Below, one piece after another: positions 11,278 to 30,807 of a DNA stretch of 42,211 nucleotides. The stretch comes from a virus (taxonomy: Duplodnaviria; Caudoviricetes): IMG/VR virus record IMGVR_UViG_3300047282_000552, positions 1 to 42,211 of that record. One strand, written 5' to 3'. Below the pieces are notes generated by a model. It saw only the letters and a program-made list of their open reading frames with translations, was not told the DNA's origin and did no database searches. Position 1 is the stretch's first letter. Each line of letters begins with the position of its first letter. The translations under genes were made by a program, and so were the position numbers.

Positions 11278-14200
11278 ATGCCTAGAATTAAAAAATACGC
11301 AGATGGTCAGAAAAGTAATCTTAATGAAGTAGTAAAATTAAGTTCTTTTCAAACATACATCATAGATGATAGTCCAAATTCAACTTATTTTAAAGTAACT
11401 GAATTTAAAGATACTTTTACAGGTGGTAAAAATGGATTTTTAATTGAAGGTACTCAGCATCTAAAAGAATCAACTGAAATAAAAATACAAATTTTAGATG
11501 TTGATGGTAATCCTGTTTATTATGAACCAGGAAATGGTGTTCCAGAATATTATGAGGGTGCATCAAAACTTATAGCTGTTTATGTATATGAAGATACACC
11601 TATTGGAGAAGCGAATATTACAATATTAGGCGAGTTAAAAACTTATATAGATGAAAGTGGTAATACACTTCCAATTCCAGATGAATGGAAAAACGTTTAT
11701 AATGTAAAGTGGGAAAAACGATTTAAAATAAATAAACTATTATCTAACGAAGATAAAGTAAGATTTTATAGAAGACCACAAGTTTCAATAAACGAAATAG
11801 TAAAACCTATTTATTCGAACATTGTTTCTAACATTACAAAGAAAGGAACCGTAGATGGATTTGCACAAGTACCGGAAGCTGGTGTAAAATTAACTGATTT
11901 TTCTAACCCAACAAATTATTTAATTCAAATAAATGATGGCGGGGCTTGGACAGGTTCAGTAGTGGGTACAACAATTCAATTTGCAGATTTAGGATTTTCT
12001 TCTATTGCATCAGATGTCATAAATAAAACCGATTTATACATCCAAACTCCTTATACCGTTAATGGTATAGTTTCTGATTTTTCTAATCAAGGATATACAG
12101 CATCATTTAATTATATTGAAGGATTAGATAATTTAAAAACAGCACTTACAGGTTCATTTGCAAAAATAACATTATCGGATTTAACAACATTTGTTGGAGA
12201 TGTTGCTAGAGTAAAGATATTTAGAAAATCACAATCAGACCTCTCCGATTATCAATTTATTCAGGAAATACAATTAGAATCTAATGAAGTTTTAAGAGAT
12301 TTAGAAACTACAACAAAAAATGAAGAATATTATGGTGGTTTTGACCTTTATAAAAATTACTGGTTAACTTCATCTAATAATATCACAACACAATTTAATC
12401 AAAATTATTTATACAATTCTGTAAAGTTAAATAGTTCAACAACAAATTTATTTTTTACATCTAAATCTTTAGATATAAGTCCAAATACGGAATATAGTTT
12501 AACATTTAACGCGAGAGTTGGTAGTCCTGCTAATACTTCTGATAGTTTAAAAGTTTATCTAAGTGGTTCAAGACAATCTACATTTAATAATGTAATTACA
12601 AGTGTAGGGACTACACAAAATATTCTTACATTAACATCGGATAATAGTTTACTTCAAAAATCTCAAATTAATGCAAACTTTAAAGCTGAAAATTTATCAA
12701 ATGTAAAATTAGTTTTTGAAGTTAAAGGAACTGATTGGTATATATCCGATGTTAGCCTAAGAGCTTCGCAAGAAACATCATTTTCTCCGGATGAAATAAC
12801 ATTTATTCAACCAATTCCGAGAACATTACCAAGAGAAACATTCGATTTCAGATTTCAATTTTATGATATAAACAATAATTACATACCTGTAATTGTTGAA
12901 GAAAGTAAAACTTTTGATGGTGGTAATCTGAATGTTATTAATAAAAATTTAGATTTAGTACCTTCAAATTTATATTTTCAATTTGATTCTGGTTCAGGAA
13001 ATGGTAATCCTGTACCACCTACAGTAATATCTATTGATGTAATTAAAAGTTATTTAACGGGTTCGGTAACATATACATCTCGTTCATATGACTTTTTTGG
13101 AAATGAATTGTCTTCATCTCAATATGTTGGTGGACAAATGCCAGGTCTTTTATTGAATAGAGAAACCGATTTAGTTACTCTCACTGTTAGTAACTTTACT
13201 GGTTCTAGAGAAGATATTATTGTACAATATATTGAATTTACAGGAGAGTGTGAGGGTGTAACTGATTCATTTGTAATTACGAGGGTAATTGATGGTAAGG
13301 GTGGTGTAAATTATGAAATTAGACCATATAGAGGAACTGTAATTAGAAATAATGACCCATCTGGTTCTTTAGAAGTACAGGCGGTAAGAATTGATGGTAT
13401 CAATGAGTTAAACATACGAAGTGGGTTACCATATGGACGTTCTAATAATAGATTATACGTTGCATCTGGTTCTTACTATGTAACTTTGACACAAGCGTCA
13501 GCTAGTGGATTTATTAAAGGGGTTTATCCTGGATTAACGGGTTCTGGTGAATTGGATTATAATGCCGTTTTCAATAGAGATTCAATAGATGGCCAAAGAA
13601 CAATTTATTTAATTGGTTCTGGTTCTGAACCAACTCCATCTCAACCAACATTAACGGCTTCAATATATACAACACTAACTCTTACTGACCTTTTGGATGG
13701 TTTAGATGCGGGATTTGTTGCATATGATGCCGATACATTTACAATTAATCCAAGACTTTCAAATACTTTTGCACCACCTTCTGCCAGTGCAACTGCATCT
13801 TTTTACAGAAGAGGTACAAACATCAATCCAATATCTGGATCTGTGATGGTTTATCCATCAATGTCAATTAACAAAGATTATGTTCCTGAATATTGGGTTT
13901 ACTATACAACACAAAGTTTTAATAGAGATATTACCGTTGTAGCAACTGATGATAATAATTTTATAATTCCATCAAAACCTTTTGGTCAATTTATAGGAAA
14001 TCCAATATCTCAAAGTAAAACTCTTACTATTAATTGGACTTACATCGAACCATACTCATCAGAATCGGTAAGTGTTAATAAAACATTTACAATAGTTCCT
14101 GAAGGAAAACCTGGAGATGAAAGTATTGTGTTTGAGATAATTCCTGCAAATGTAAACCTAAATGCAAATTCAAGAGGTATTGTAAATGATTATAAACCAT

Positions 14201-17200
14201 CTGCCGGAGAAATAAGATTAAAACAGGGTTCAAGATATCTTTTATTTACTGGTAGTAGGTTTCCAGGAACTTTCCATATTGCAACTGCATCAATTGTAGC
14301 AAATAATATTACTAAAGGTGATATAAGATTTGATAACAATTATACTGAATCACTTATTTTTAGTGCATCTTCAAATATGACTAATTTAAGTGGAAGTATT
14401 CAATTTCCTTTAGAAATACAACCATATTATACATCTTCGGTTTATACTGCGAGTGTTTACCAATATTTTACAAAAGTTTTGGATGGACCTCCACCGATTG
14501 AAATTATTATATCACCTCTTAATGCAACTATAAACGCAAATGAAATAGGATATGTTTCTGAATCTGCTTATAGAAGTGCTGATACTTCAATTAGGGTAAG
14601 GGAAGGAAATGATTTTTTAACTTTCACAACACAATCGGCAGCTCCTGGTACTTGGAGAATTACATTAGCAAGTGGAAGTAATATAGCAACACAATCATTA
14701 TCATCATCTTCATTTGATACGGCAACATTAAGGTTTAGAAAATTTGATGACCCATATGTATCTGCAAGTGTACTTTACAATATATTGGTTTATCCATATG
14801 CATTGGGTGCGGGACATCAATATACATCTTCTTTATATAGTAGAACACAAACGTTTACTAAAAATGTTGCACCACCAAATGCAAGAGCAGTATCATTATC
14901 CGCAACTTCTCAACTTGTAAATTTTGATAGAGATGGACAAGTTACATCTCCATTGGATGATATTACATTAACCGCTACAGCGTTTAATACAACCGGTTCG
15001 GTATATTATCAATTCTTCAAAGATGGTAGTCCAGAAACGGGTATTCAACTTTCAAACACATATACCGTTCCATCATACAATGCAACTTTGCCTGGTCAAA
15101 CTGCAACATGGAAAGTTACTATAAGGGATGGTAGTAATGCGGCTGCACAACCTATTAGAGCAGCCGCAGAAATTTCAATTGCAGGTGTAAAAACTGGAGC
15201 AGATGCATATTCATTCAATGCAACAAATGAAAATACTTCTATTACAGCAGACCTTTGGACAACTGAATTTTCTGGAAGTTCTATTCAGATAAGAGGATTT
15301 AAAGGGCCTGACCCATTAGAACATACATCCTCATATGTTCCATCTCAGGAAGTATATAACTATTTGGATGGAACTTTCTTAGGAAACTTAGGATACTATT
15401 CTGCATCAATATTTACATCATCTTCATTTGTGGGTGTGAGTGGAAGTAAATTTCCACCATCTAACCCCGCAACTTTGCCTGATTTAAGAAGTTGGTACGC
15501 ACCGGCTATTAACAAATCTGGACAAGTTATTTATAAAATTGATTTTGAAAACGCAAAACAAGTTTCTTATGTAACTCAATCAATTGCAGTACAATTTACT
15601 CCGCCTGCACCTTATAGTGCAAATTTATCCAGTGAAAATGGTGGAATAATGTATAGAGTTTCTGGCGAATTAGAATTTGACCTATCTACAACTACTATAA
15701 GAGTTTTTAGAGGTGATTTAGAATTAACAAACGTTTCATCATTTAGTGGTGGTAAGTTAGATGCTTATGGTAATCTCGGCTATCCAAATCAATGTAGAGT
15801 AAGTATTTTATCATACTCCGGACATTTAACTTTAGCCGGCGGATTAACCGCAGGTTCGCACGTTTCCGGAACACCAGCATCATTTGCAGGTATAACTGGA
15901 TGGTCTAGTCCCGAAACAATTGCATCAGGGGAGATTGTATTCCAAATTGATTGTGAGGGTAGAGAAACTCTTTACAAAACCTTATCGTTATCGGTAGTAT
16001 ATGAGGGTAATACTGGACCGGGTATTGTAATGAGGGGTGTTTGGAGCTCAACAACAGATTATATTGCAGAAATTGCAAATCAAAGAAGGGATGCGGTAAT
16101 TTGGCCAGACCCAGCAACAGTAAATAAAGACACTCACTATTGGGCGGCAATAACGGGTAGTGGACCTGGAACACCGGTAGGCCCACAACAACCCGATGGT
16201 ACAGTTCCATACACGGATACTGCATATTGGCAGTATTTGGGACAAGAAGAATTTTTTGTAGCAGCACAAATAGCCATATTCCAAGAATCATATGTTAAAA
16301 ATACGCTTAATGTTGGTACTAAAGATGGTACTGGTGCATTTGCAAATATTGTAATTGCTGGTGGTAGAACTGACCCATATATTGCAATAGGACAAACAGG
16401 AACACAGGGAACTCAAGGAACTGGAGTTTCAATTGGTGGTGCCGGAGTTATTGGGTATAATAGACCTGGTATATTCTTAGGAGTATATGAAGATGGTGCG
16501 AATGGTACAACAGGCCGTTTCTCAATTAAAACAACTGGTACATCTGGAAAAGGAATGTATTGGGATGGTGACCAATTAACAATAGTTGGTTCAATTAGAC
16601 AAAGGCAACCTGGTATACCTGAAGGAAGTTATAGAGGTGTTTGGGCACCTGCAACAGCTTATTATCCTGATGATACTGTAAGATATGGTGTTTCAACTTA
16701 TATAAATTCAAATACACATACATCAACTAATGATAATAATGTAAATACCGGCTATCCGCCAGATGCAACAAATACTTGGGCAGTTTCAGCTGCGGCAGGC
16801 ACATCTGGAACAACTGGTACATCTGGAACAACTGGAACGGCCGGCACAACTGGAACTGCAGGTGGGCCTGGACCTGGTGTTGTTTATAGAGGATTGTTTG
16901 CGGGTAATAATAATTACTTTCACACAACCGAAAGAAAAGATATTGTAAAATATGGAAGTAACTATTATTTAACAAATAATACTGGTCTTAACGGAAGTGC
17001 GGGTACAGCTGGTTCTGGATTGTTTTGGAATTTTCCTGGAGGTGGTAACACGAATTGGACTACATTTGGAGCTCAATTTAGTTCTGTAGCAACTGATGTA
17101 CTTTTTGCGGTAGAACAATATGTTGATAAAACAATTAATATTGGTGCAAGGGGTGGAAACGCATTGATTACTTTAAATGCAAATGAAAGTGGTTCAAACG

Positions 17201-18723
17201 CAAATCCATACATTTCAATAGGACAGATAAGTTCTAGTATATTCAATGGGTGGGTAACCGAATCCCAAGTTCAAGGATTTAATAATAATGGTATTTTTAT
17301 GGGATTTGACCAAACTATACCAAAAGTATCTATGATTGGTGTATCTGGTTCTTTGGTTTGGAATGGTGAAGATTTATCAATAAAAGGTTCAATTAATACA
17401 AATAATGGACAAATTGGTGGATGGACAATTTCACCTGGATCAATCATTTCCTCTAATCAAAATATTCAATTATATTCAGAACCATCAGAATCTATTTCGG
17501 TATTTGATGATGAAGGTCAATTAAGATTTTTAGCTTCTACGAAAAAAACATTACCGGACCCAATCGGTGTAGGTTATTCAAATGCAACTATTGGTACATT
17601 TACCACATCATCTACACAAACAAATGGTGTACCAAATGATGGTACTTATGACCCATATTATGGTGGTACTGTTGCATATGATTATTATATACAACCTTCT
17701 TCTAATGGCTCATTTACGGCTACGGTATCAGGAGTTCATATAATTACAGTCAATTTTCCTTTTGATTATGGTAATTATGTTCAAGCGAATGGTTCAGCGG
17801 ATGGATTCATCACCGCACGTTTAAGATTATCTAAAACTGGATACTGGCCACAAAACTTCACCGAATATGTAGCAGATTCAAATGCTGTTCAAGCATATGC
17901 GCAAGGTACGGTAAACACTTATTGGGAATGGAATGGATTTCAATGGACACAATCATATTATGCAAGTGGACAAACTTCATATCTACCGGCAGCAAAAATG
18001 ACAATAATAGCAGAATTACAATCTGGAGTAACATATTATTTGACATATGTAGGATATGCATACGCCCATTCGCAAGATACATCTGATTCAAATAATTATC
18101 CACCTTATGGATTTAATTCCACGGTTTATACTGCATTAAATAATTCAGCATCAAGAACGGTGACTATTAAAACTTTATCGGCTGGTACTGTAATAAACGG
18201 AGGTGGATTCCAATCGGTTATAGATGATGCTGCGTATTTAAGAGTAACTTCTGGTACTAGTGGTTCTTATAATTTTTCAACCGAAATTACTGGTAGTTTA
18301 ATGGTTGATAGAGCTATATCCAAATTTAGTAATGGATATGGATACCCACCGGCAGTAAAGGCGTTTGGTACTGTGAGATATAACGGAACGGCTTCTAATA
18401 ATGCTGCAAATTATACTATATTAAATCGTTATAATATTAGTAGTACTTTGAGTTTAGATACATTTAATAGATATGTTATAACATTTACCAATCCTTTGGA
18501 TACTACGGATTATATCATTTTATTTACAATATCAAACATAACATATTCTTCAAATGAAATTGGTAATATAGCCACAATTACAGGAAAAAGTACCACTGGT
18601 TTTAATTTTAGAATAGAAAGACCTAGTCATCAGAGTCCGGGTATTGTAACAACATGGATAGGTGGTAACTTAAGCTTAACCGCAGCAACTGAATTTGTTG
18701 ATTTTGTAGTATTATCAAGATAA
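11278..18723 (+). CDS. Very large tail fibre/host-specificity protein (2481 aa)
   Basis: Beta-rich Ig-like repeats separated by DG/EGKPG linkers, YRGxW modules and a short Gly-X-Thr collagen-like tract. It also has a GQIGGWTI motif and a C-terminal VKAF...YVITFTNPL domain typical of fibre tips, and is followed by a chaperone-like gene. Confidence 0.75.
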   Translation: MPRIKKYADGQKSNLNEVVKLSSFQTYIIDDSPNSTYFKVTEFKDTFTGGKNGFLIEGTQHLKESTEIKIQILDVDGNPVYYEPGNGVPEYYEGASKLIAVYVYEDTPIGEANITILGELKTYIDESGNTLPIPDEWKNVYNVKWEKRFKINKLLSNEDKVRFYRRPQVSINEIVKPIYSNIVSNITKKGTVDGFAQVPEAGVKLTDFSNPTNYLIQINDGGAWTGSVVGTTIQFADLGFSSIASDVINKTDLYIQTPYTVNGIVSDFSNQGYTASFNYIEGLDNLKTALTGSFAKITLSDLTTFVGDVARVKIFRKSQSDLSDYQFIQEIQLESNEVLRDLETTTKNEEYYGGFDLYKNYWLTSSNNITTQFNQNYLYNSVKLNSSTTNLFFTSKSLDISPNTEYSLTFNARVGSPANTSDSLKVYLSGSRQSTFNNVITSVGTTQNILTLTSDNSLLQKSQINANFKAENLSNVKLVFEVKGTDWYISDVSLRASQETSFSPDEITFIQPIPRTLPRETFDFRFQFYDINNNYIPVIVEESKTFDGGNLNVINKNLDLVPSNLYFQFDSGSGNGNPVPPTVISIDVIKSYLTGSVTYTSRSYDFFGNELSSSQYVGGQMPGLLLNRETDLVTLTVSNFTGSREDIIVQYIEFTGECEGVTDSFVITRVIDGKGGVNYEIRPYRGTVIRNNDPSGSLEVQAVRIDGINELNIRSGLPYGRSNNRLYVASGSYYVTLTQASASGFIKGVYPGLTGSGELDYNAVFNRDSIDGQRTIYLIGSGSEPTPSQPTLTASIYTTLTLTDLLDGLDAGFVAYDADTFTINPRLSNTFAPPSASATASFYRRGTNINPISGSVMVYPSMSINKDYVPEYWVYYTTQSFNRDITVVATDDNNFIIPSKPFGQFIGNPISQSKTLTINWTYIEPYSSESVSVNKTFTIVPEGKPGDESIVFEIIPANVNLNANSRGIVNDYKPSAGEIRLKQGSRYLLFTGSRFPGTFHIATASIVANNITKGDIRFDNNYTESLIFSASSNMTNLSGSIQFPLEIQPYYTSSVYTASVYQYFTKVLDGPPPIEIIISPLNATINANEIGYVSESAYRSADTSIRVREGNDFLTFTTQSAAPGTWRITLASGSNIATQSLSSSSFDTATLRFRKFDDPYVSASVLYNILVYPYALGAGHQYTSSLYSRTQTFTKNVAPPNARAVSLSATSQLVNFDRDGQVTSPLDDITLTATAFNTTGSVYYQFFKDGSPETGIQLSNTYTVPSYNATLPGQTATWKVTIRDGSNAAAQPIRAAAEISIAGVKTGADAYSFNATNENTSITADLWTTEFSGSSIQIRGFKGPDPLEHTSSYVPSQEVYNYLDGTFLGNLGYYSASIFTSSSFVGVSGSKFPPSNPATLPDLRSWYAPAINKSGQVIYKIDFENAKQVSYVTQSIAVQFTPPAPYSANLSSENGGIMYRVSGELEFDLSTTTIRVFRGDLELTNVSSFSGGKLDAYGNLGYPNQCRVSILSYSGHLTLAGGLTAGSHVSGTPASFAGITGWSSPETIASGEIVFQIDCEGRETLYKTLSLSVVYEGNTGPGIVMRGVWSSTTDYIAEIANQRRDAVIWPDPATVNKDTHYWAAITGSGPGTPVGPQQPDGTVPYTDTAYWQYLGQEEFFVAAQIAIFQESYVKNTLNVGTKDGTGAFANIVIAGGRTDPYIAIGQTGTQGTQGTGVSIGGAGVIGYNRPGIFLGVYEDGANGTTGRFSIKTTGTSGKGMYWDGDQLTIVGSIRQRQPGIPEGSYRGVWAPATAYYPDDTVRYGVSTYINSNTHTSTNDNNVNTGYPPDATNTWAVSAAAGTSGTTGTSGTTGTAGTTGTAGGPGPGVVYRGLFAGNNNYFHTTERKDIVKYGSNYYLTNNTGLNGSAGTAGSGLFWNFPGGGNTNWTTFGAQFSSVATDVLFAVEQYVDKTINIGARGGNALITLNANESGSNANPYISIGQISSSIFNGWVTESQVQGFNNNGIFMGFDQTIPKVSMIGVSGSLVWNGEDLSIKGSINTNNGQIGGWTISPGSIISSNQNIQLYSEPSESISVFDDEGQLRFLASTKKTLPDPIGVGYSNATIGTFTTSSTQTNGVPNDGTYDPYYGGTVAYDYYIQPSSNGSFTATVSGVHIITVNFPFDYGNYVQANGSADGFITARLRLSKTGYWPQNFTEYVADSNAVQAYAQGTVNTYWEWNGFQWTQSYYASGQTSYLPAAKMTIIAELQSGVTYYLTYVGYAYAHSQDTSDSNNYPPYGFNSTVYTALNNSASRTVTIKTLSAGTVINGGGFQSVIDDAAYLRVTSGTSGSYNFSTEITGSLMVDRAISKFSNGYGYPPAVKAFGTVRYNGTASNNAANYTILNRYNISSTLSLDTFNRYVITFTNPLDTTDYIILFTISNITYSSNEIGNIATITGKSTTGFNFRIERPSHQSPGIVTTWIGGNLSLTAATEFVDFVVLSR
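16798..16878 (+). repeat. Collagen-like Gly-X-Y tract (GTSGTTGTSGTTGTAGTTGTAGGPGPG)
   Basis: 9/18-bp periodic DNA (acatctggaacaactgg twice) inside the fibre gene. Confidence 0.8.
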
Positions 18724-18737
18724 AAAATAAATAATTT

Positions 18738-19196
18738 ATGAAACCAAAATTAATTATAAGTGAAAAAAATGGAAACATTAGGTGGACATCCCCAAATGAA
18801 GAAACTATTGATTTTGTAACCAAACAAGCAATATCATCAGATTCAAATTATGTTTTTATGTACGATGACTCCGAAATTGATTATTCATTTGCTTTTTGTT
18901 ATGATTTTAATTTTAATGATGAAAATGGTTCAACTGCAATTCCATCTTTAAATTTAGAAAAGGCAAAAGAATTATTTTTAAATTATTTGAGATACAAAAG
19001 AAATGAATTATTTCCTGATTTAGATTTACAATATATGAGGGTATTGGAAACTGGAAATCAAACATTAATTCAAGAAATAGTTACAAAAAAACAACAACTA
19101 AGAGATTTGACAAATATTGATTTTTCAGATGTAACAAATCCTGTTCAAATAAGAGAAAAATGGCCAACTGAAATATTAGGCCAAATACCTTTTTAA
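18738..19196 (+). CDS. Tail fibre assembly chaperone-like protein
   Basis: LEKAKE...RxxRNxLxxxLD...KQQLRDL...WP motif; located directly after the fibre gene. Confidence 0.7.
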   Translation: MKPKLIISEKNGNIRWTSPNEETIDFVTKQAISSDSNYVFMYDDSEIDYSFAFCYDFNFNDENGSTAIPSLNLEKAKELFLNYLRYKRNELFPDLDLQYMRVLETGNQTLIQEIVTKKQQLRDLTNIDFSDVTNPVQIREKWPTEILGQIPF

Positions 19197-19206
19197 TTAA
19201 TAATAA

Positions 19207-20520
19207 ATGCCAGCATCAACACTATATAGAGTAACTTTACCAAATGGAACATCTGGAGATGTAACTTGGACAGAATGTGAAGGAAATGAAGTGACTATCT
19301 TTGTACCTTCAAAAATAGGTTCAATAATATTCTCCGCACAGAATGGACAATATACTGTTCCTCCTGGATCCGTTGTAGAAACTTTTGGTACTTCTGCAAG
19401 TGATTGTTTATCTTCTTCTATTACTTTTACAACTACAACAACTACAACTGCGGCACCAACTACAACCACAACTACAACAACGTTAGCACCATCATCATTT
19501 AGTTTGGGATATGATGCTTCTTCAGCTGCAAATTCTTGTTATGATTTTGCATCATCACCAACAACTTATTATTCTTTTGGTGGTACCGTTTTACAAAATA
19601 CTCTACAAATATTTACGGATAGTGGATTAACAACACCGGCTCCTAATGGATACTATTCAAATGGAACATATTATTTTATAATAAGTGATAATGGTACTTT
19701 AGATGATAAGGGAACTTGTTTATCGGTTACAACAACTACAACCACAACTACAACTACAACCACAACTACAACAACCACAACAACTACAACCACAACAACT
19801 ACAACAACTACAACTGCAGCACCAACAACTACAACTACTACGGCTGCTCCAACAACTACAACTACTACAGCTGCTCCAACAACTACAACTACTACAGCTG
19901 CTCCAACTACAACAACTACAACCGAAGCACCAACTACAACTACAACAACGGCTGCTCCAACAACTACAACTACAACTGAAGCTCCAACAACAACCACAAC
20001 AACTACAACTGAAGCTCCAACAACCACAACAACTACAACAACCACAACAACTACAACAACTACAACCGCAGCACCATCTTATTTCTATTGGAATGCAACT
20101 TATTGTGGAGGCGGAAGTGCAGGGGTTGTTAGATTTAGTGTTGACCAGGTAACTAATAGTGTATTTGATTTGGGTAGTTATGTGTGTGTTCAATTAACAA
20201 CAACTGCAACTGGTCCTTCATACGATATTGACTTGGGTGATGGTTCTAGTTATGTAGGAAATAATTGTAGCTCATGTCCAACACCACCAACGTCAACTAC
20301 AACAATTGCGTATGAATATTATGATTACGAACCTTGTACGGGCGGTAGTGCATACACTGGACCAGTTTATTCAGTAGAAGTAGTAGCCGGTGATGGAGCT
20401 CCGGGATGTGTAGCTTATCTTGGAACAGTATATTCACAATATAGCGGCGTTTATTCCGGACCTGCAAATTATACGTTATTAACAGGATATAGTCTTGTTT
20501 CTTGTGGATTGTGTCAATAA
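19207..20520 (+). CDS. Mucin-like Thr-rich protein with Cys-containing globular modules, probably virion-associated
   Basis: Poly-Thr and T6-AAP/T6-EAP repeats separate small Cys/Tyr-rich domains; no signal peptide or transmembrane segment is evident. Confidence 0.75.
   Translation: MPASTLYRVTLPNGTSGDVTWTECEGNEVTIFVPSKIGSIIFSAQNGQYTVPPGSVVETFGTSASDCLSSSITFTTTTTTTAAPTTTTTTTTLAPSSFSLGYDASSAANSCYDFASSPTTYYSFGGTVLQNTLQIFTDSGLTTPAPNGYYSNGTYYFIISDNGTLDDKGTCLSVTTTTTTTTTTTTTTTTTTTTTTTTTTTTTAAPTTTTTTAAPTTTTTTAAPTTTTTTAAPTTTTTTEAPTTTTTTAAPTTTTTTEAPTTTTTTTTEAPTTTTTTTTTTTTTTTTAAPSYFYWNATYCGGGSAGVVRFSVDQVTNSVFDLGSYVCVQLTTTATGPSYDIDLGDGSSYVGNNCSSCPTPPTSTTTIAYEYYDYEPCTGGSAYTGPVYSVEVVAGDGAPGCVAYLGTVYSQYSGVYSGPANYTLLTGYSLVSCGLCQ
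19729..20076 (+). repeat. Coding ACN-triplet tandem repeat (poly-Thr with 27-bp AAPTTTTTT units)
   Basis: Runs of aca/act/acc codons with recurring gctgctcca/gaagctcca; a shorter tract lies at about 19423-19483. Confidence 0.9.
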
Positions 20521-20555: not shown

Positions 20556-22553
20556 ATGAAAAAATTACGATATATTTGTTGTCAACCGGCAATTACTTAT
20601 TATACTTGGCAAGTTGAAGTATTAATTAATAACTTCAAAAAAATGGGAGTAAACCCAAACTACATTGATATAGTTTGTGGGATAGAAAATGGTATAATTC
20701 CAGATGAATGGAGAAAATTGATGTTACATTATAATAGTGTTCGTTTTTTCTTTTACAACGATACAAGAACCGATAAAAGTTATCAACCTGCCATTTATTT
20801 TAATTTGATGAAGCAACACATCGTAGCTAGACCGGAAATACATGATGATGTTTTATTTTTACATGATTCTGATATAGTTTTGACAAGACCTCCTAAATTT
20901 GATGATATGATAAAGGGTAATTCTTGGTATTTAAGTGATACTAAGTCTTATATAAACTATAATTATATAAAATCAAAGGGAGATTACATATATGAAAATA
21001 TGTGCCGAATAATTGGGATAGACCCATTAATACCAAAGTTATTAAATAATAATTCAGGTGGAGCTCAATATATAGTTAAAAATACTACATATGAATTTTG
21101 GGATAAAGTTGAAAAGGATAGTATTAATCTTTACAAATGGTTTTGTGATAATGAAAATTTGCATGTAAAAAAAACAGAATATGATTATCCCATACAAAAA
21201 TGGACTGCCGGAATGTGGTCTTTACTATGGAATGCTTGGTTAGCAGGGCATGAGACAATTGTAGATGAACGTTTGGCATTTGGATGGGTGACGGGTCCAA
21301 AAAATGAAGTTGAAAAATACGGAATTCTTCACAATGCAGGAGTTGTGGCCGATTCCAATAGCCCACATTGCTATGCCAAAGGTTTATTTTATAAAGGAGC
21401 TTATATGAATAAACTTCCATATTTTGAAAATTTAAAAATAAGTGATGAATTTGCTTCATCATTTTATTGGAAAGAAATTTGTGAAACTGCAAATAAATCC
21501 ATTTTAATTGAACAAACTCCTGAAACTAAAATTAAAAATGATTTTAACAAATACAAAATTACAAATTTACAAATAGACCCATACGGTGTATGTAATGCTA
21601 AGTGTTGGTTTTGTCCAGTAAGATATAAAGGTAATCCTGATCATGGAAAGGAAGTAATGAGTCCTGAATTATTTGAAAAAATTATTAAAAATCTTATAGA
21701 TGAAAGAGAAAGACCCGATGGATTAGTTAGTAAAAATTTTAATGGATTTTATACAGCACATTATAACGAAGTTCTTTTATACCCACATTTTGAAGAAATA
21801 TTAAAGATATGTAGAAAATATAAATTGGTAACAATGGTACTTTCAAATGGAATACCATTAACACCGGAAAGAGTTGATATACTAAAAGAATATCAAGATG
21901 TATTGAGTGGTATATGTTTGAATACACCTGCATTTGATGCAGAAACTTGGAGTAAAAGAAGTGGTATTAATATAAAACAATTTGATAAACTTATATCAAA
22001 TATAAAATATGCAACTGAACAATTATCTGATATGGTAAAAAGAAAAGCGTTTTCAATTCAAATTAATGGTTCACATGAATTATCTTTTGGTGATAAAGGT
22101 GGTTGGTTAGAAAAAGGACCAGAGTTTCCAAAAGATATGGATTTGGATGTTAATAATGGGGAATTGGTTCAACAGGAGAAAAAAGCAAAAGAATTATTTC
22201 CTGGTGTAAATATTTTTACGGTTCCATATCTAATTGATAGAGCGGGATTGTTGGATGAGGTGATGAGTAATAAACCTGCAATTGAAAGAAATTTAAAAAG
22301 AAATGTTGCCGATAAAAAAGTAATTGGATGTGCAAATGGTAGAGAAGTTGGTGGTAGACCAATCGGATGGGTTCATGTAAATGCAAGTGGTAAAGCCTTC
22401 CTTTGTTGTAATGATTATGATATGGAAATGCAATGCGGAGATTTCAAAACGCAGGAATTAAGAGATTTTTGGGGAACTGATGAACATATAAAAATGGTTC
22501 AAAAATCATATGAAACCATTTGTAGAGGGTGCGCTTCTGCTATTTTTGAATAA
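20556..22553 (+). CDS. Fusion: GT-A fold glycosyltransferase (SGT1/HPAT-like) + radical SAM/SPASM-twitch domain
   Basis: N-terminal YYTWQ, YQPAI, DxD (HDSD), GGAQY and WTAGMW motifs. C-terminal CxxxCxxC (CNAKCWFC), YNEVLL, SNG and GC...LCCND...CRGC. ATG 20556 is preferred over the track start. Confidence 0.75.
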   Translation: MKKLRYICCQPAITYYTWQVEVLINNFKKMGVNPNYIDIVCGIENGIIPDEWRKLMLHYNSVRFFFYNDTRTDKSYQPAIYFNLMKQHIVARPEIHDDVLFLHDSDIVLTRPPKFDDMIKGNSWYLSDTKSYINYNYIKSKGDYIYENMCRIIGIDPLIPKLLNNNSGGAQYIVKNTTYEFWDKVEKDSINLYKWFCDNENLHVKKTEYDYPIQKWTAGMWSLLWNAWLAGHETIVDERLAFGWVTGPKNEVEKYGILHNAGVVADSNSPHCYAKGLFYKGAYMNKLPYFENLKISDEFASSFYWKEICETANKSILIEQTPETKIKNDFNKYKITNLQIDPYGVCNAKCWFCPVRYKGNPDHGKEVMSPELFEKIIKNLIDERERPDGLVSKNFNGFYTAHYNEVLLYPHFEEILKICRKYKLVTMVLSNGIPLTPERVDILKEYQDVLSGICLNTPAFDAETWSKRSGINIKQFDKLISNIKYATEQLSDMVKRKAFSIQINGSHELSFGDKGGWLEKGPEFPKDMDLDVNNGELVQQEKKAKELFPGVNIFTVPYLIDRAGLLDEVMSNKPAIERNLKRNVADKKVIGCANGREVGGRPIGWVHVNASGKAFLCCNDYDMEMQCGDFKTQELRDFWGTDEHIKMVQKSYETICRGCASAIFE

Positions 22554-22587: not shown

Positions 22588-22872
22588 ATGGCAACAAAAA
22601 CTGAAAAATTATCAGAAGATATTATAGAAAGTATAAAAACCTTACAGGGTGATGTAAATAGTTTAATTTTTGATTTAGGACAAGTAACGTTAAGAACAAG
22701 AGAATTAAACTTAGAAATTGCACGTTTGCAAGAAATTAAAAAGGAAGTAGAGGACAAAATTGATAATAAAGGGTTGCAATTAGAAAATATTCTTTCCGAT
22801 TTACAAAGAAAATATAAAAATGCAGAAGTTGATTTAAAGGATGGTACGGTTAGTTTTGAAGTATCTGAATAA
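22588..22872 (+). CDS. Coiled-coil hypothetical protein, paralog of 26982..27341
   Basis: Shares the pattern KLxExIIExIK...DxGQ...KY-x4-[VI]DLKxG; preceded by ATACTTAT (22565-22572). Confidence 0.7.
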   Translation: MATKTEKLSEDIIESIKTLQGDVNSLIFDLGQVTLRTRELNLEIARLQEIKKEVEDKIDNKGLQLENILSDLQRKYKNAEVDLKDGTVSFEVSE

Positions 22873-23199: not shown

Positions 23200-23231
23200 T
23201 TTGGAATTTACGAATTTTTTTCGTATATTTG
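23200..23231 (+). promoter_or_regulatory. Bacteroidota-type sigma70 promoter (-33 TTTG, -7 TATATTTG)
   Basis: Exact TTTG-N20-TAnnTTTG; the ATG is at 23238. A TACGAA-N5-TTCGTA palindrome (23209-23225) spans the spacer and overlaps the -7 element. Confidence 0.7.
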
Positions 23232-23237
23232 TTATAT

Positions 23238-25415
23238 ATGTCAAAACAAAAGTTACTTTATGTATGTCCACACCTATCCACCGGTGGACAACCACAATAT
23301 ACCTTTAAACAGGTTAAACACTTTGTAAACGATTTCGAAATAGAAGTTGTTGAAATAAACAATAGTGGTGGCGATGCGTTTGTTGTTCAAAAAAATAGAA
23401 TTAAAGAATTAGTACCTGTACATACTTTGGGGGAAGATAAATCTCAGATTCTTAATATTATTGAAAAGTTTAATCCGGATATTATACACTTTCAGGAAAT
23501 ACCTCAATTTGATTTATCTGAATTTGTATTAGATGTAATCTTTAGAAAAGATAGACCTTACTTTATTTTAGCAACTACACATGGTTCTTTCACAAATCCG
23601 GTGGATATTGCATATCATCCAGATAGATACGTTTTGGTATCGGAATGGAGCAAACAAAGATTTGATGATGCTGAATTAGGAGTAGAAACAACTCTTTGGG
23701 AATATCCGATTGAAAATTATGTATTTAATAAAGAAGAAGCACAAAAACAATTAGGGTTTGAATCTGATTGGAAACATGTTTTAAATGTTGGATTATTTTC
23801 ACCTGGAAAAAATCAAGGAGAAATATTTGCAATAGCAAGACAATTAGAAAAATACAAAATTAAATTTCATTTCGTAGGCAATCAAGCTATGAATTATGAA
23901 AATTATTGGAGACCACTTATGGAAGCCGTTCCACCTAATTGTGTTATATGGGGAGAACGAAACGATGTTGATACATTCTATGCGGCATCAGACCTATTTT
24001 ATTTCTCATCTAAATTAGAATTAAATCCATTATCAATCAAAGAAGCATTGAGTTATAAACTTCCATCTATATTCCGAAAGTTACACACTTATTTGGATAC
24101 ATACGATAATAACTCATTGGTAACTTATATTGATGATGATTTAAAAATAACTAAGAGAATTATATTAGAAAAATTAAATCCAGAATTTAATGAAGTACCA
24201 GGATGGTTTGCATATAGAGAGTTGTATAATAGTGTAATTGATAATGCTATTGGTGGCGAAACATTTGTAGAAGTTGGTGCTTGGTTTGGTAAATCAACAA
24301 ATTATTTAGCAAGTAAAATAAAAGAATCTGGTAAAGATATTGATTTTACCGCAATTGATACATGGAAGGGTACTGATGATGAGAAATTACATCAAAGTAT
24401 AGTTAATGCTTTTAATGGGGATATATTTTATGAATTTATAGACAATATGGTTTTATTGGAAAATTATGAAACAATAAAAACTATAAAAGATACATCTAAA
24501 AATGCAGCAAATACATTTTCAAATAATAGTATTGATTTTATTATGATAGATGCGGGACATTCGTATGAAGCATTAATAGAAGATTTAAATGTTTGGTATA
24601 AAAAAGTAAAACCAGGTGGAATTATTAGTGGAGATGATTATGGTGTATTTGGTGGAGTTACTACCGCTGCAAATGAATTTTTTTATGGTCAATTCCATAC
24701 AGGATTTCGTTCATTTGTAAGAAGAAAACCTCGTATCCAAATTAAACATATGTTGACTAGACCGGATGATATGAGAGAAAGAGTATCCATACAATCTATA
24801 AAACAATTGGAAAAATATGGAATGGTGTATCAACCAATTGTAAATAAAGTTTATGAAGGATTAGCACCTGCTGAAAATTGTAGAAGGCCTGAACATATAA
24901 GTAAAGATAATAAACCGGGTGAATTATATCCTGGTGCTGGATTAGGTTGGATGACTGGTAGACACTATGGGTGTTATTTGGCACATAGAAACGCATTAGA
25001 AACAATAGATGATGAAAACTTTGATTATACTTTGATATTTGAAGCAGATGCATTTATCTATACGGGATTAGAAGAATTTGTAGATATTGTACATAAGGCA
25101 TGTTTTATCTCAGAAAGAGATGATGTGTACTTTATTGGATTAGCGGATAACCCATCAAGAGAAAAAACAAAAGTAGATGAACTATTTACCAAAACTGCAT
25201 ATAATCAAGACCTTGCACATGCATATCTAATACCGAATAGAACAAAAGGGTGGTGGATGGAAAGGTTAAAAGATTGTGGTTGGGATGTTGGAGATTTATG
25301 GTATAATCATGTATTTTATCATCATCCAAAAAATAGATACACTACAAATAAAATGTATTCAAAACAAGCGGAAGGATTTTCTCTTTTAGATTTGACAGTT
25401 AAAACTTGGGATTAA
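23238..25415 (+). CDS. Three-domain fusion: GT4-like glycosyltransferase + class I SAM methyltransferase + GT25-like glycosyltransferase
   Basis: GT-B motifs PHLSTGG, VGLFSPGKNQ and SKLELNPLSIKEAL. Methyltransferase motifs VEVGAWFGKS, IDTW, IDAGHSYE and KPGGIISGDDY. GT25-like motifs GCYLAH, LIFEAD and AHAY. Confidence 0.8.
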   Translation: MSKQKLLYVCPHLSTGGQPQYTFKQVKHFVNDFEIEVVEINNSGGDAFVVQKNRIKELVPVHTLGEDKSQILNIIEKFNPDIIHFQEIPQFDLSEFVLDVIFRKDRPYFILATTHGSFTNPVDIAYHPDRYVLVSEWSKQRFDDAELGVETTLWEYPIENYVFNKEEAQKQLGFESDWKHVLNVGLFSPGKNQGEIFAIARQLEKYKIKFHFVGNQAMNYENYWRPLMEAVPPNCVIWGERNDVDTFYAASDLFYFSSKLELNPLSIKEALSYKLPSIFRKLHTYLDTYDNNSLVTYIDDDLKITKRIILEKLNPEFNEVPGWFAYRELYNSVIDNAIGGETFVEVGAWFGKSTNYLASKIKESGKDIDFTAIDTWKGTDDEKLHQSIVNAFNGDIFYEFIDNMVLLENYETIKTIKDTSKNAANTFSNNSIDFIMIDAGHSYEALIEDLNVWYKKVKPGGIISGDDYGVFGGVTTAANEFFYGQFHTGFRSFVRRKPRIQIKHMLTRPDDMRERVSIQSIKQLEKYGMVYQPIVNKVYEGLAPAENCRRPEHISKDNKPGELYPGAGLGWMTGRHYGCYLAHRNALETIDDENFDYTLIFEADAFIYTGLEEFVDIVHKACFISERDDVYFIGLADNPSREKTKVDELFTKTAYNQDLAHAYLIPNRTKGWWMERLKDCGWDVGDLWYNHVFYHHPKNRYTTNKMYSKQAEGFSLLDLTVKTWD

Positions 25416-26557
25416 TGATTTACGATAATTTAGTTAAAAATAATAAAAATAAAGTAGAAATACAAAACAAAGTTCATTATCACTTTGTCAAAGGACCATT
25501 TATTGAAGTTAAGGGGTCTAAATCTGCAAAATATTTAGTAAACTTTATTGATAATAGAAATGGTAAAGTTTATTTTTCTACTGAAATAAATAATAATTGT
25601 TGGTGTAGATGTAGTATTGAATATTTTGTAGAATGGAAAATACAGATATATGAAAATGGAAAACTTTGGTTTGAACATTTATTTAATCCAACTGGTAAAA
25701 GAATTTATATAGCTTTAGATTCAAAGGCGTTAGGAGATTCATTGGCTTGGTTTCCGTATGTAGATGAATTTAGAAAACAATATAATTGTACGGTGATTAC
25801 ATCTACATTTATGAATGATATGTTTAAAGAAAAATATCCTGAAATAGAATTTGTTGAACCTGGAACTAATGTAACTGATTTATATTCTATGTACACAATA
25901 GGTTTATTTTATAACGAAGATAATAGTATAAATCGTTTTAAAAATCCGGTAGACCCTAAATCGGTAACACTTCAAAAAATGTGTTCAGATATTTTAGGAT
26001 TGGAGTTTAAAGAAGTAAAGCCAAAAATTAAAAATATTAAAAAAGTAGATAAAGAAAACCAAATTTGTATAGCTACATTTGGTACGGCACAATCTAAATT
26101 TTGGAATAATCCTACTGGATGGCAAGAAGTGGTGGACTGGCTAAATAATAGAGGATATAAAGTTAAACTAATATCTAGAGAGCAAGATGATTATATGGGT
26201 AATAAACATCCTATTGGTATAGAAAGACATCCACAAGGACCAATAGAAGATGTTATGAAAGAATTAAAAAAATCACACGCATTTATTGGAATTGGTAGTG
26301 GATTGAGTTGGTTAAGTTGGGCTTTAGATGTACCAACGGTTTTGATAAGTGGATTTTCATATAAGTGGGCTGAAATGGAAGATTGTATTCGTATTGGTTC
26401 ACCGCAAGGAAAATGTGAAGGATGTTTTAATCGTTTGAGACTAGATCCGGGTGATTGGAATTGGTGTCCTGACCATAAAGGAACTGAAAGACAATTTGAG
26501 TGTACTAAAACAATAACAGGAGATATGGTAATAAAAGAACTTGAAAAATTCTTATAA
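25415..26557 (+). CDS. Protein O-heptosyltransferase of the Aah/TibC (BAHT) family
   Basis: ALGDSLAWFPY, CIATxxTAQSKFWNNPTGWxEV, FIGIGSGLSWLSWA-x3-PTVLISGFS and the iron-finger cysteines CxxC...WCPxHKGTxRQFECT all match the family as I recall it. TAATG coupling to the upstream gene. Confidence 0.85.
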   Translation: MIYDNLVKNNKNKVEIQNKVHYHFVKGPFIEVKGSKSAKYLVNFIDNRNGKVYFSTEINNNCWCRCSIEYFVEWKIQIYENGKLWFEHLFNPTGKRIYIALDSKALGDSLAWFPYVDEFRKQYNCTVITSTFMNDMFKEKYPEIEFVEPGTNVTDLYSMYTIGLFYNEDNSINRFKNPVDPKSVTLQKMCSDILGLEFKEVKPKIKNIKKVDKENQICIATFGTAQSKFWNNPTGWQEVVDWLNNRGYKVKLISREQDDYMGNKHPIGIERHPQGPIEDVMKELKKSHAFIGIGSGLSWLSWALDVPTVLISGFSYKWAEMEDCIRIGSPQGKCEGCFNRLRLDPGDWNWCPDHKGTERQFECTKTITGDMVIKELEKFL

Positions 26558-26946
26558 TGAAAAAAGTTTGGGTAAACGGTACATTTGATATTCTACATAT
26601 AGGGCATATAAAACTTTTAGAACATGCTGCAAAATTTGGAAATGTTAGAGTGGGGATTGATACTGATGAAAGAGTTTCTAAAAAGAAAGGAGATGGTAGA
26701 CCGTATAATTGCTTAGAAGATAGAATGGAGTTTTTGCGTAGTATTAAATATGTTGATAGTGTTGTAGAATTTGATTCTGACGATTCTCTTATTGAGAGAA
26801 TAAAAGAATGGGAACCTGATGTTATGGTAATTGGAAATGATTACAAATATCATCAAATAATAGGCGTAGAATATATTCCAAAGGTAGAATTTTTTGATAA
26901 ATTATCTGGATATAGTACAACAAACATTTTAAAAAACCAAAAATAA
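26557..26946 (+). CDS. Cytidylyltransferase-superfamily sugar-phosphate nucleotidyltransferase, most like HldC/RfaE domain II (ADP-heptose synthase)
   Basis: NGTFDILHIGH, GIDTDxxV-x2-KGxGRP, YVDxVxxF, GNDY and YSTT motifs; TAATG-coupled to the heptosyltransferase. Confidence 0.75.
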   Translation: MKKVWVNGTFDILHIGHIKLLEHAAKFGNVRVGIDTDERVSKKKGDGRPYNCLEDRMEFLRSIKYVDSVVEFDSDDSLIERIKEWEPDVMVIGNDYKYHQIIGVEYIPKVEFFDKLSGYSTTNILKNQK

Positions 26947-26981: not shown

Positions 26982-27341
26982 ATGGCAGAATTAGATAAAA
27001 TTCCACAAAAAACTTCAGTTGAATTGGAAACGGTAAAATTGGAAGAAGAAATTATTGAAAAGATTAAAGAAATCAATAACGATTTAAATGCAATTGTTAA
27101 TGATTTTGGACAAATCTACATTAGAAAAAAAGAATTAAACGAAGAACTTGTTAGATTGGATGAAATTCTTGAAAAAGGTGAAGATGCATTCAAAGACAAG
27201 AATAAAGAATTAAAAACTATCATTGATTCTTTGGAAGAAAAGTATCCAAGACATCAAATTGATTTAAAAGAAGGAATTATTGTTTATCAACCGGGCGCAC
27301 CTAGCAGACTTCAGCAACAAAACGCACCGATTGAAAAATAA
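26982..27341 (+). CDS. Coiled-coil hypothetical protein, paralog of 22588..22872
   Basis: Same motif pattern as 22588..22872; preceded by ATACTTAT (26948-26955). Confidence 0.7.
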   Translation: MAELDKIPQKTSVELETVKLEEEIIEKIKEINNDLNAIVNDFGQIYIRKKELNEELVRLDEILEKGEDAFKDKNKELKTIIDSLEEKYPRHQIDLKEGIIVYQPGAPSRLQQQNAPIEK

Positions 27342-30300: not shown

Positions 30301-30807
30301 TGGTGGACTAAGTTTGTTGAAAAAGGTGCAAAGAAATTGGATACGCAAGAAAAAATAGGATTGGTTAAGAGATGGGCGTTTGGTGATAAATCATTCCGTA
30401 TTAACACAATTCAAGATGCTAAATTAAAAGCTTGGGCCGAACAAATAGACAAACAAGACCAACAAAAAATATCCAAACAAAACCTAATGAAGTTTGAAGA
30501 AATATTCTTAGGAGTTGGTGCAGATGTATTGTCATTTATGAGTTCAGTACTTACAGCAAATCCAGATTCAGCTAAAAAACAAATGGTATCTAGATTAGAA
30601 TCAACTATAAAGCAAGTAAAAGCAAGTGGTGACCCAAAGAAAATTCAAAAACTTAAATTAGAATTGGAAAGATTAAATGCTTTGGGTGGATTTGATAAAA
30701 TAGTACCAAACGAAGGAATAGTATTCGTTTATGGTGGAAATACATACAAACTTACAGGCGCATTTGCACCCCTAAATCAAATATTAGGTATATTCTTTGA
30801 AAAATAG
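27391..30807 (+). CDS. Multidomain putative head-internal protein: HxGH nucleotidyltransferase + small modules + RNA-ligase-like nucleotidyltransferase domain
   Basis: GRFQPFHKGH...ISGTDVR at the N-terminus. A GGKAD...EREHT...EIALDHLxE module lies in the middle. The C-terminus carries EGGAYGHMxHP, EKTDG (KxDG), NLEVI, EGIV and YKLTG. Confidence 0.7.
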   Translation: MKGLTQYLIETILGEAAKIDKVVVVYSGRFQPFHKGHYATYDHLVKKFGRDNVYIGTSDVTDSKKSPFGFKEKKAIMIKMFGIPSSKIVNVRNPYAPEEILNKFDSDTTGFVTVVGEKDASRLSGKYFKPYKGKIDTGYLDRGYVYAAPAQPNPISGTDVRYWLSNGSEAERKKNFTKAYPKFDDQIFKLITLKLKKLKECINEEIKLNVKVGDEILMGKFKNKKVIVKSIGKDEWGMPTINGKKAVTFRIPKKDLKESASRGYGADAGEPETGYYTDGSSRILNSTKPEPWFKQMGYTQLHFPKGDYMRGKGKISKELEGPYRKVTYKLQNVVHSTLNPAADPHTVEDWENIENKKPINKVKRFWHVDKKEKPQIISKEDINEIIDEVEESLLDEMGLPGGAGVGLSLPGGYINGAPNPKDVKKLKSKLDKDGSEEYEKVDEKINSKNHKPESEAEHNFLHHHKTSGYAPDYGHEAELDTMDFDDDRKKQPGHQTDTKDSQSKGYEPVKENELKGGKADGMTLKDIAKHHNVSVQDIKVEFMKGYAIEREHTSDTNVAKEIALDHLYEHPKYYTRLAVVDEKVIKEYTGNGAFYNDGNATTGTQWNGTWEEYDNESYYLDNLEGWDTYHEIPSEFEKKRAVDQKLPVDDQNDGKTHKYNRILKTGLKTPADFLKGDNKLKEVSSLDHQVGFNVPGMFGGEGIDITSDENLDLNNPQGWEKYDKATNKFKKKGISESLILEGGAYGHMAHPFDIEMGLTFGDLKQIVVRALNGDLELAREKTDGQALAISWVNGRLVAARNKSHLKNKGEGAMTIGQVADKFAGRGGLTDAYNFAMQDLSKAISQLSEPQRKKIFKDGACFMNLEVIYPTSVNVIPYNQPLLVFHGTFEYDTEGNIIGENQSAASILGGMIKQINAHVQSKYTIQGPPMQKLPKSEHLSKLQGKYISMISKLQSEFGLSDSDGVADYHQAWWTKFVEKGAKKLDTQEKIGLVKRWAFGDKSFRINTIQDAKLKAWAEQIDKQDQQKISKQNLMKFEEIFLGVGADVLSFMSSVLTANPDSAKKQMVSRLESTIKQVKASGDPKKIQKLKLELERLNALGGFDKIVPNEGIVFVYGGNTYKLTGAFAPLNQILGIFFEK

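What the first reader, a model, noticed from the sequence alone, without database searches (positions are those of the whole stretch)
20556..22553. Plant-type peptidyl O-glycosyltransferase (SGT1/HPAT, GT96/GT95-like) fused to a radical SAM/SPASM enzyme
Seen: the motifs YYTWQVEVLINNF, YQPAI, VLFLHDSDIV and WTAGMW occur in order, followed by CNAKCWFC and a Cys-rich twitch/SPASM tail. From memory they parallel the plant serine O-galactosyltransferase motifs (YFDWQ, YPAIN, VVILDADM, WISEMY). Inference: a phage homolog of the enzymes that glycosylate extensin-like repeats sits immediately after a Thr/Pro repeat protein. The rSAM domain could oxidise or epimerise the sugar, as BtrN/NeoN-type twitch enzymes do, or modify the Cys-rich modules of the neighbour.
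Basis: partly seen in the sequence, partly recalled or inferred. Interest (0 to 1): 0.8.

Follow-up and report, generated by a model that had tools for sequence, protein, structure and literature searches.

The report
Phage threonine-tract glycosyltransferase–radical SAM fusion
A large freshwater phage encodes one protein joining a sugar transferase distantly related to plant cell-wall protein O-glycosyltransferases with a radical SAM enzyme; it likely sugar-coats the threonine-repeat protein encoded just upstream and probably alters that sugar by radical chemistry, though no activity has been measured.

Summary
The fusion is real: an intact 665-aa ORF with all the motifs, 48 further full-length fused clusters, and contigs from other runs bridging the junction. 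The N-terminal domain (PHROG 4417, unnamed) folds as a GT8-like GT-A glycosyltransferase. Its family profile matches HPAT/SGT1-type proteins (HH probability 95.9%, controls at most 4.7%) but misses the Pfam HPAT cut-off, so it is a distant relative, not a member.

A Ser/Thr tract sits in the gene directly upstream in 69 of 92 viral loci (6 of 462 downstream genes) and in 9 of 9 cultured phages checked, often on major tail proteins. In close relatives the tract gene and the enzyme are gained or lost together.

The C-terminal domain is a BtrN-like twitch radical SAM enzyme. It is optional, and is fused to or beside this or another glycosyltransferase (GT60, GT2, GT71-like) in 38 of 50 loci. It shows no link to the neighbour's cysteines.

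Best reading: Thr O-glycosylation of a phage structural protein plus radical sugar tailoring; the chemistry is untested. This scan reported the same fusion in other genomes; ten literature searches found no description.

The parts
20556..22553 (+). Fused glycosyltransferase-radical SAM ORF, 665 aa
20556..21509 (+). GT-A glycosyltransferase domain (residues 1-318; PHROG 4417; distant relative of HPAT/SGT1)
   Evidence: model pLDDT 96; GT8/GT24/GT6 folds, Z up to 14.8; PHROG E 1e-59; hhalign 95.9%
20865..20873 (+). DxD motif D104-S-D106 (predicted metal/NDP-sugar site, with H259 of HNAG)
   Evidence: D104, D106 and H259 invariant in 117 of 117 close homologues; D106 and H259 in 65 of 65 wide ones
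21201..21218 (+). WTAGMW motif, aligned to WISEMY of SGT1-type proteins; position 219 is Gly in this clade and Asp/Glu in most distant members
21531..22553 (+). Radical SAM domain with twitch extension (residues 326-665)
21591..21614 (+). CxxxCxxC (C346, C350, C353), SAM-binding cluster motif
   Evidence: present in 204 of 206 domains
22404..22415 (+). CCND: C617 aligns to a BtrN twitch cysteine, C618 to a BtrN Phe (a spare cysteine, candidate H donor)
   Evidence: alignment; CCND in 206 of 206 domains
19207..20520 (+). Thr-tract protein, 437 aa: small Cys-containing modules joined by poly-Thr and TTTTTTAAP-type repeats; likely acceptor
18738..19196 (+). 152-aa gene (PHROG 20196, unknown function) present with the cassette and absent without it in close relatives
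11278..18723 (+). 2481-aa fibre-like protein: context and anchor of the presence/absence test, not part of the cassette
   Evidence: PHROG 5073 tail fibre, E 1.7e-5

Best explanation
The protein joins a GT-A glycosyltransferase domain to a twitch radical SAM domain; the first likely transfers a sugar from an NDP-sugar onto the Thr/Ser hydroxyls of the upstream Thr-tract protein (presumably a virion part), and the second probably epimerises or oxidises one carbon of that sugar. Shown: the fusion, both folds, the conserved metal and cluster ligands, kinship to HPAT/SGT1, and the genomic coupling of enzyme and tract. Inferred, about 0.75: initiating O-glycosylation in the host cytoplasm, with Mn2+ held by D104/D106/H259. 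Inferred, about 0.55: a 5'-deoxyadenosyl radical abstracts a sugar C-H; the auxiliary cluster would sit on C592/C617/C656/C659 and the spare C618 would return H (epimerase), or the cluster would take the electron (dehydrogenase). Whether the rSAM acts on the NDP-sugar or on the attached glycan is open; its repeated fusion to acceptor-binding transferases slightly favours the attached or channelled sugar. The glycan would stiffen the linker and shield it from proteases (inference from mucin-type linkers, my knowledge).
For: Fold: best matches LgtC (Z 14.8, rmsd 3.7, 238 aligned), WbbM, glycogenin, Skp1 galactosyltransferase and UGGT; HPATs are described as GT8-related (PMC4908140). Kinship: wide family profile against 27 motif-selected HPAT/SGT-type domains gives P 95.9%, E 5.9e-9, 254 columns; reversed, GT60, GT2, GT71-like and GT6 controls give at most 4.7%. 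Acceptor: S/T run of 6 or more in the gene directly upstream in 69 of 92 dereplicated viral loci, against 6 of 462 genes at +1 to +6. 9 of 9 cultured phages examined (of 77 records hit) have the tract directly upstream, e.g. major tail proteins of Lactococcus phage 1706, phiFL1A and phiCTP1. Anchored on the fibre gene, 33 of 57 loci lack both tract gene and enzyme, 4 have both, none has one alone. In complete relative G001 all 37 poly-Thr matches lie just upstream of the enzyme; complete relative G005 has neither. In complete G003 a GT60 transferase takes the family's place beside the Thr-tract gene and the rSAM. Bacteroidota homologues lie in RiPP clusters, several with Thr-rich precursor tails. 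rSAM: best solved sequence BtrN, E 3e-8, next 0.008; Foldseek top hits BlsE and DesII. A glycosyltransferase lies within two genes in 38 of 50 dereplicated loci (24 this family, 8 GT60, 5 GT2, 1 GT71-like). The rSAM is also fused to GT60, GT2 and a sulfotransferase. Fusion arose or was lost repeatedly.
Against: No activity, glycan or virion proteome. The Thr-tract protein has no family hit, so its virion location is inferred. 15 of 92 loci have no tract within three upstream genes, including one fused case (L011/L214). The narrow profile of the window's own clade scores only 21.9% against HPAT/SGT. Gly219 replaces the acidic residue of WISEMY/WTADMW. The rSAM is absent from 66 of 92 GT loci and had no match among cultured phages. 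Structure alignment does not separate sugar from peptide rSAMs: five peptide-acting enzymes (Z 16.1-16.8) tie with BtrN (Z 15.8, rmsd 3.1, 198 aligned). 12 of 50 rSAM loci had no glycosyltransferase by my profiles (6 at contig edges; one has a PF04488 gene by Pfam). I ran no background control for rSAM-glycosyltransferase adjacency.
Confidence: 0.55

Rival explanations
1. The GT glycosylates the tract, but the rSAM acts on the polypeptide itself (Thr epimerisation or dehydration, or Cys cross-links in the small modules), like a RiPP maturase.
For: Peptide-acting enzymes (a sactipeptide thioether-forming enzyme, ChlB, SkfB, anSME, SuiB) top the VIA list by under 1.1 Z. The peptide epimerase YydG/EpeE is a weak sequence hit, E 0.01. 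Bacterial GT homologues sit in RiPP clusters.
Against: Cys content of the tract protein is the same with a fused, nearby or absent rSAM (medians 13, 10, 9; 2.5, 2.0, 2.5 per 100 aa). The standalone form is about 342 aa with the cluster motif near residue 20, leaving no room for a leader-binding domain. No RiPP-maturase model matches. Its steady neighbours are sugar enzymes.
Confidence: 0.15
2. The GT domain acts on another acceptor (extends a glycan begun by the TibC-like heptosyltransferase or by the host, or modifies DNA or a host surface glycan), and the tract is only a flexible linker.
For: The nearest solved folds include glycan-extending GT8, GT6 and GT24 enzymes. The window holds a TibC/Aah homologue above the TIGR04414 cut-off. 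Some loci lack tracts.
Against: TibC is seen in 24 of the 33 relatives that lack both tract gene and enzyme, so it is not tied to the tract. No other glycosyltransferase is annotated in the stretches shown around the nine cultured-phage genes. The family is usually the N-terminal domain in fusions with GT2, GT6, GT11 or GT29, as an initiating enzyme might be.
Confidence: 0.12
3. The fusion is incidental: the rSAM serves another pathway (for example a free NDP-sugar or metabolite) and is merely co-expressed late.
For: The GT works without it in most phages. Some rSAM loci lack a neighbouring GT, and others lie by GDP-mannose dehydratase or DegT aminotransferase genes.
Against: Repeated fusion to this family in two GT clades and to three unrelated transferases. 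It stays beside the tract gene when GT60 replaces the GT.
Confidence: 0.1
4. The Gly219 clade is a catalytically dead GT that only binds the tract and delivers the rSAM.
For: Loss of the acidic residue found as D/E in most distant members and in WISEMY.
Against: Most Gly-clade proteins (213 of 259 in the set) are not fused to an rSAM, yet keep DxD, H259 and the tract coupling.
Confidence: 0.06

Closest known systems
Plant/algal peptidyl O-glycosyltransferases SGT1 (CAZy GT96) and HPAT1-3 (GT95); Pfam PF23452
   Same: Homologous at profile level over 254 columns with four motifs in register; predicted to start O-glycans on repetitive hydroxy-amino-acid tracts.
   Different: Below the Pfam cut-off; 14-16% identity; no membrane anchor; likely acceptor poly-Thr rather than Ser-Hyp4/Hyp (SGT1 needs Hyp, PMC4908140); Gly at the WISEMY Glu; fused to an rSAM; donor sugar unknown.
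Mycobacteriophage virion glycosylation (Che8 gp110, Corndog gp38, Myrna; Freeman et al. 2023, seen only as summarised in PMC12363180 and PMC12619734)
   Same: Phage-encoded glycosyltransferases modifying capsid and tail-tube proteins.
   Different: No mycobacteriophage is among the 77 cultured records hit by this GT; here the enzyme is coupled to poly-Thr tracts and to a radical SAM module.
BtrN and the sugar-acting radical SAM enzymes BlsE, DesII, NeoN, HygY, SpeY
   Same: CxxxCxxC core plus one auxiliary-cluster twitch; BtrN is the best solved sequence match (HYNE aligns to its HFYGE; twitch cysteine aligned).
   Different: 15-19% identity; these act on antibiotic intermediates, not protein glycans (my knowledge); Cys-Cys where BtrN has Cys-Phe; phage-encoded and GT-fused.
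GT60 polypeptide GlcNAc-transferases (PF11397)
   Same: Unrelated initiating transferase found in the same slot (tract gene, rSAM, GT) in other phages, and also fused to this rSAM.
   Different: No homology to the window's GT domain (hhalign 0.24%).

Membership tests
HPAT/SGT1 (PF23452; GT95/GT96) | Score above the Pfam gathering cut-off (23.9 bits) | tested here: not met
   0 of 117 close members; 2 of 115 distant representatives hit below cut-off, best 21.9 bits, E 1.3e-4; the window itself has no match
HPAT/SGT1 (PF23452; GT95/GT96) | Remote homology with shared motifs in register | tested here: met
   hhalign 95.9% (SGT-type 92.0, HPAT-type 89.8); controls at most 4.7%; 19 of 19 tested targets above the PF23452 cut-off; Atlas neighbour cluster has 10% HPAT members
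HPAT/SGT1 (PF23452; GT95/GT96) | Type II membrane ER/Golgi localisation | tested here: not met
   The catalytic fold starts at residue 4; plant feature from PMC8012813 and PMC4908140 passages
HPAT/SGT1 (PF23452; GT95/GT96) | Acidic residue in the WISEMY/WVLEMY motif | tested here: not met
   Gly219 in 117 of 117 close homologues; D/E in 46 of 65 of the wide set
HPAT/SGT1 (PF23452; GT95/GT96) | Transfers Gal to Ser or Araf to Hyp in Hyp-rich peptides | not testable with these tools
   No assay; no 2OG-Fe hydroxylase hit among 30 window ORFs scanned, but the record is only 25% complete
GT-A glycosyltransferase (GT8-like group) | GT-A fold with DxD and a C-terminal His | tested here: met
Radical SAM superfamily | CxxxCxxC and partial TIM barrel | tested here: met
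   Pfam above cut-off; model pLDDT 92 and fold matches
Twitch subgroup (BtrN-like) | One auxiliary cluster on a short C-terminal extension | tested here: met
   PF13186 above cut-off; five invariant late Cys, too few for two clusters; the cluster itself was not observed
BtrN/NeoN/HygY-type sugar dehydrogenase or epimerase | Acts on a sugar or cyclitol C-H | tested here: inconclusive
   Sequence and Foldseek favour BtrN/BlsE/DesII; VIA ties with peptide maturases
rSAM/SPASM RiPP maturases | Curated family score; coupling to a Cys-rich precursor | tested here: not met
   All NCBIfam hits far below cut-off; no dependence on Cys content
Phage virion O-glycosylation systems | Glycan detected on a virion protein, dependent on the phage GT | not testable with these tools
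   Only genomic coupling is shown

The most novel reading that the evidence does not exclude
A radical SAM enzyme that edits a protein-linked O-glycan (a Cys618-dependent epimerase), bolted onto interchangeable initiating transferases, lets phages build unusual sugar coats on poly-Thr stalks of their particles; the transferase is the unrecognised phage and bacterial branch of the plant SGT1/HPAT superfamily, used also to glycosylate Bacteroidota RiPPs.
Probability: 0.3. Interest if true: 0.85.

Novelty: new variant of a known kind. Interest (0 to 1): 0.66.

Why it matters
It would give a function to a large unnamed phage family (PHROG 4417; about 1,600 stretches estimated in IMG/VR) and extend virion O-glycosylation from mycobacteriophages to dairy, gut and aquatic phages, with a visible acceptor signal (poly-Thr). 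Because cultured phages such as Lactococcus phage 1706 carry the pair, the glycosylation step can be tested now. A soluble, anchor-free relative of GT95/GT96 would offer a structural model for plant enzymes that gave no solved-structure hit in my searches; one deep-learning study predicted a novel fold for GT96 (PMC8476585), whereas this kinship points to GT-A. Radical tailoring of a protein glycan would be new chemistry as far as I know and as far as my searches reached.

Tried and rejected
Pfam on the GT domain: no informative hit. PDB sequence searches with the GT profiles gave only chance hits. No HPAT/SGT1 structure appeared in the fold searches, so a direct structural comparison was not possible. 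PF23452 and PF23741 (DUF7164) genome searches of the own record found nothing, and no control genome rang; DUF7164 remains an untested Atlas lead. Motif fishing in viral contigs gave 8 loci, none with a long HPAT-like frame. No RNA holder was listed. Promoter and terminator scans were at chance level. The Thr-protein module had no cultured-phage match. The HygY and Freeman papers are not held; that the HygY/SpeY switch residue directly follows a cluster ligand is recalled and unverified, and Cys-Cys at this spot may be common in twitch proteins, so the epimerase call is weak. The moraphage paper's supplement was unavailable, so I could not check whether this family is among its four putative core glycosyltransferases or whether the phage belongs to that lineage. 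Rejected: assembly chimera; rSAM acting on the Cys modules; TibC as the tract's dedicated enzyme; membership of PF23452. No complex prediction was run (enzyme-substrate pair, low value).

Full report
Setting. The window is a whole 42-kb virus record, estimated 25% complete, with T4-like terminase, portal and prohead protease genes. A complete relative with an 86% identical GT domain is 274 kb. None of 26 genes checked has a Shine-Dalgarno motif, which fits a Bacteroidota host (my knowledge; not otherwise tested). The best-matching runs are mostly freshwater metagenomes.

Observation. The ORF, its motifs and the two-domain layout are as described. The fusion is not a chimera: 48 other clusters among the 120 listed carry both domains, and contigs from three of four runs laid bridge the junction. 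Each domain is more often a separate gene. The GT search of proteins up to 364 aa returned 985 hits, the listed ones mostly 305-320 aa; the rSAM search returned 635, the listed ones mostly about 342 aa. Split pairs occur side by side, with one gene between, or in reversed order. Quick trees need at least 3 changes of the fused state on the rSAM tree (74 of 183 unique domains) and at least 2 on the GT tree (164 of 429), so fusion or fission happened more than once.

The N-terminal domain. It is PHROG 4417, of unknown function. The model (pLDDT 96) matches GT8, GT24 and GT6 enzymes, best Z 14.8. D104, D106 and H259 are almost invariant. To test the plant link without recalled sequences, I fished natural proteins from metagenome contigs with a short recalled motif; 19 of 19 tested passed the PF23452 cut-off. 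Their organisms are not named, and the SGT-type and HPAT-type labels are mine; 7 of the 27 domains used were not Pfam-tested. The 65-sequence family profile aligned to them at 95.9% over 254 columns, and controls stayed at or under 4.7%. Caveats: the targets were chosen by a motif that the family partly shares, the family controls were shallower than the target, and the narrow profile reached only 21.9%. Direct Pfam membership fails. The result is a distant relative that likely works like SGT1/HPAT, not a member.

The acceptor. In 92 dereplicated viral loci, an S/T run of 6 or more lies in the gene directly upstream in 69 and within three genes in 77, against 6 of 462 downstream genes (before dereplication 51 of 75 against 4 of 449). 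Among 77 cultured-phage records with the GT I examined nine, and all nine have the tract directly upstream, mostly at the C-terminus of a major tail protein (in VPE25 it lies in an unannotated frame). Firmicute prophages show the same pattern. For a presence/absence test I anchored on the upstream fibre gene: of 57 loci (not dereplicated), 33 run straight on to the GT4/TibC genes with neither tract gene nor enzyme, 4 have both, none has one alone, and 20 end early or are arranged differently. In complete genome G001 all 37 poly-Thr matches fall just upstream of the enzyme; complete G005 has neither. In complete G003 the family is absent and a GT60 transferase sits behind the tract gene and the rSAM, which looks like replacement by an unrelated initiating enzyme. 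Bacteroidota chromosomal homologues lie in lanthipeptide, grasp-with-spasm and rSAM RiPP clusters, some with Thr-rich precursor tails, again pointing to peptide acceptors. Against this: 15 of 92 loci lack a nearby tract, and the window's tract protein has no family hit, so its place in the virion is inferred from its position after the fibre gene and from the cultured phages.

The radical SAM domain. CxxxCxxC, HYNE, DR and five late cysteines are invariant in 70 aligned domains, and CCND is present in 206 of 206. BtrN is the best solved sequence (E 3e-8) and BlsE and DesII are the best Foldseek hits, but VIA ties BtrN with peptide maturases. Context favours sugar: 38 of 50 dereplicated loci have a glycosyltransferase within two genes. 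My GT60, GT2 and GT71-like profiles were built from those neighbours, but Pfam confirmed representatives of each independently. The domain is also fused to GT60, GT2 and a sulfotransferase. No background rate was measured. The Cys-module idea fails because Cys content does not depend on the rSAM. C618 aligns to a Phe in BtrN and is therefore a spare thiol. NeoN uses Cys249 as H donor (PMC10991966, passages), and a twitch epimerase, HygY, is switched to a dehydrogenase by one Cys mutation (title only, in that paper's references). An epimerase is thus my lead, held weakly. The rSAM is missing from 66 of 92 GT loci (the sample is enriched for rSAM loci), so it is an optional tailoring module, interchangeable with the methyltransferase, GT2, GT6, GT11 and GT29 domains fused to the same GT elsewhere.

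Mechanism and odds. GT-A fold and HPAT/SGT kinship: about 0.9. O-glycosylation of the Thr tract: about 0.75. Sugar tailoring by the rSAM: about 0.55. Donor sugar, linkage, site of radical action and biological role are unknown.

Literature. I read passages of PMC8012813, PMC4908140, PMC8476585, PMC10991966, PMC12619734 and PMC12363180. Freeman 2023 and Besandre 2021 were not held. Ten searches of an open-access library (listings only) showed no description of this family, of poly-Thr glycosylation in phages, or of a GT-rSAM fusion; subscription papers and the moraphage supplement were out of reach. Earlier notes of this scan report the same fusion and reading in other genomes. They are not independent evidence; my reading was recorded before seeing them and tested here.

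Verdict. A real, conserved and apparently unpublished fusion; a new variant of phage virion glycosylation, with an untested radical tailoring step. Interest 0.66.

Noticed in passing
window 23229-26946 (+): Second glycosylation cassette: GT4-methyltransferase-GT25 fusion, a TibC/Aah O-heptosyltransferase above the TIGR04414 cut-off (E 2.6e-57 to PDB 4rb4) and a heptose-1-phosphate adenylyltransferase-like gene; kept in relatives that lack the GT-rSAM cassette. The Gly-Thr/Ser repeats of the 2481-aa fibre are a candidate target (from earlier scan notes, not tested).
   Followed up: partly
L117:3602-8531, L119:417-6867, L108:173-8101, L106, L129, L136, L157, L161: Bacteroidota homologues of the GT (about 570 aa, often with a second GT2/GT7-like domain) inside RiPP clusters (pinensin-leader lanthipeptide, grasp-with-spasm, rSAM/SPASM, peptidase exporters); several precursors end in Thr/Pro-rich tails. 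Candidate glycosylated RiPPs.
   Followed up: partly
L088:3117-3930, L089:3164-3926, L087:3755-3890: The major tail (or capsid) gene ends in or just before a Thr tract, and a second frame continues poly-Thr; possibly programmed frameshifts giving longer mucin-like extensions.
   Followed up: no
L225, L226, L228-L231, L239-L243, L246, L266: The same rSAM family sits beside GT60 (PF11397) genes, often with several 2OG-Fe(II) oxygenases.
   Followed up: partly
window 22588-22872 and 26982-27341: Two small paralogues (40% identical over 87 aa) of unknown function, each following a glycosylation block.
   Followed up: no
P0136, P0139, P0175, P0208, P0214: The GT also fuses to small Cys-rich DUF6171-like domains (N- or C-terminal) and, once, to a Hint domain.
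   Followed up: no
window 7863-11015 and 27391-30807: An SbcD-SbcC (Mre11-Rad50-like) fusion of 1050 aa, and a 1138-aa cytidylyltransferase-like/DUF5661 multidomain protein.
   Followed up: no
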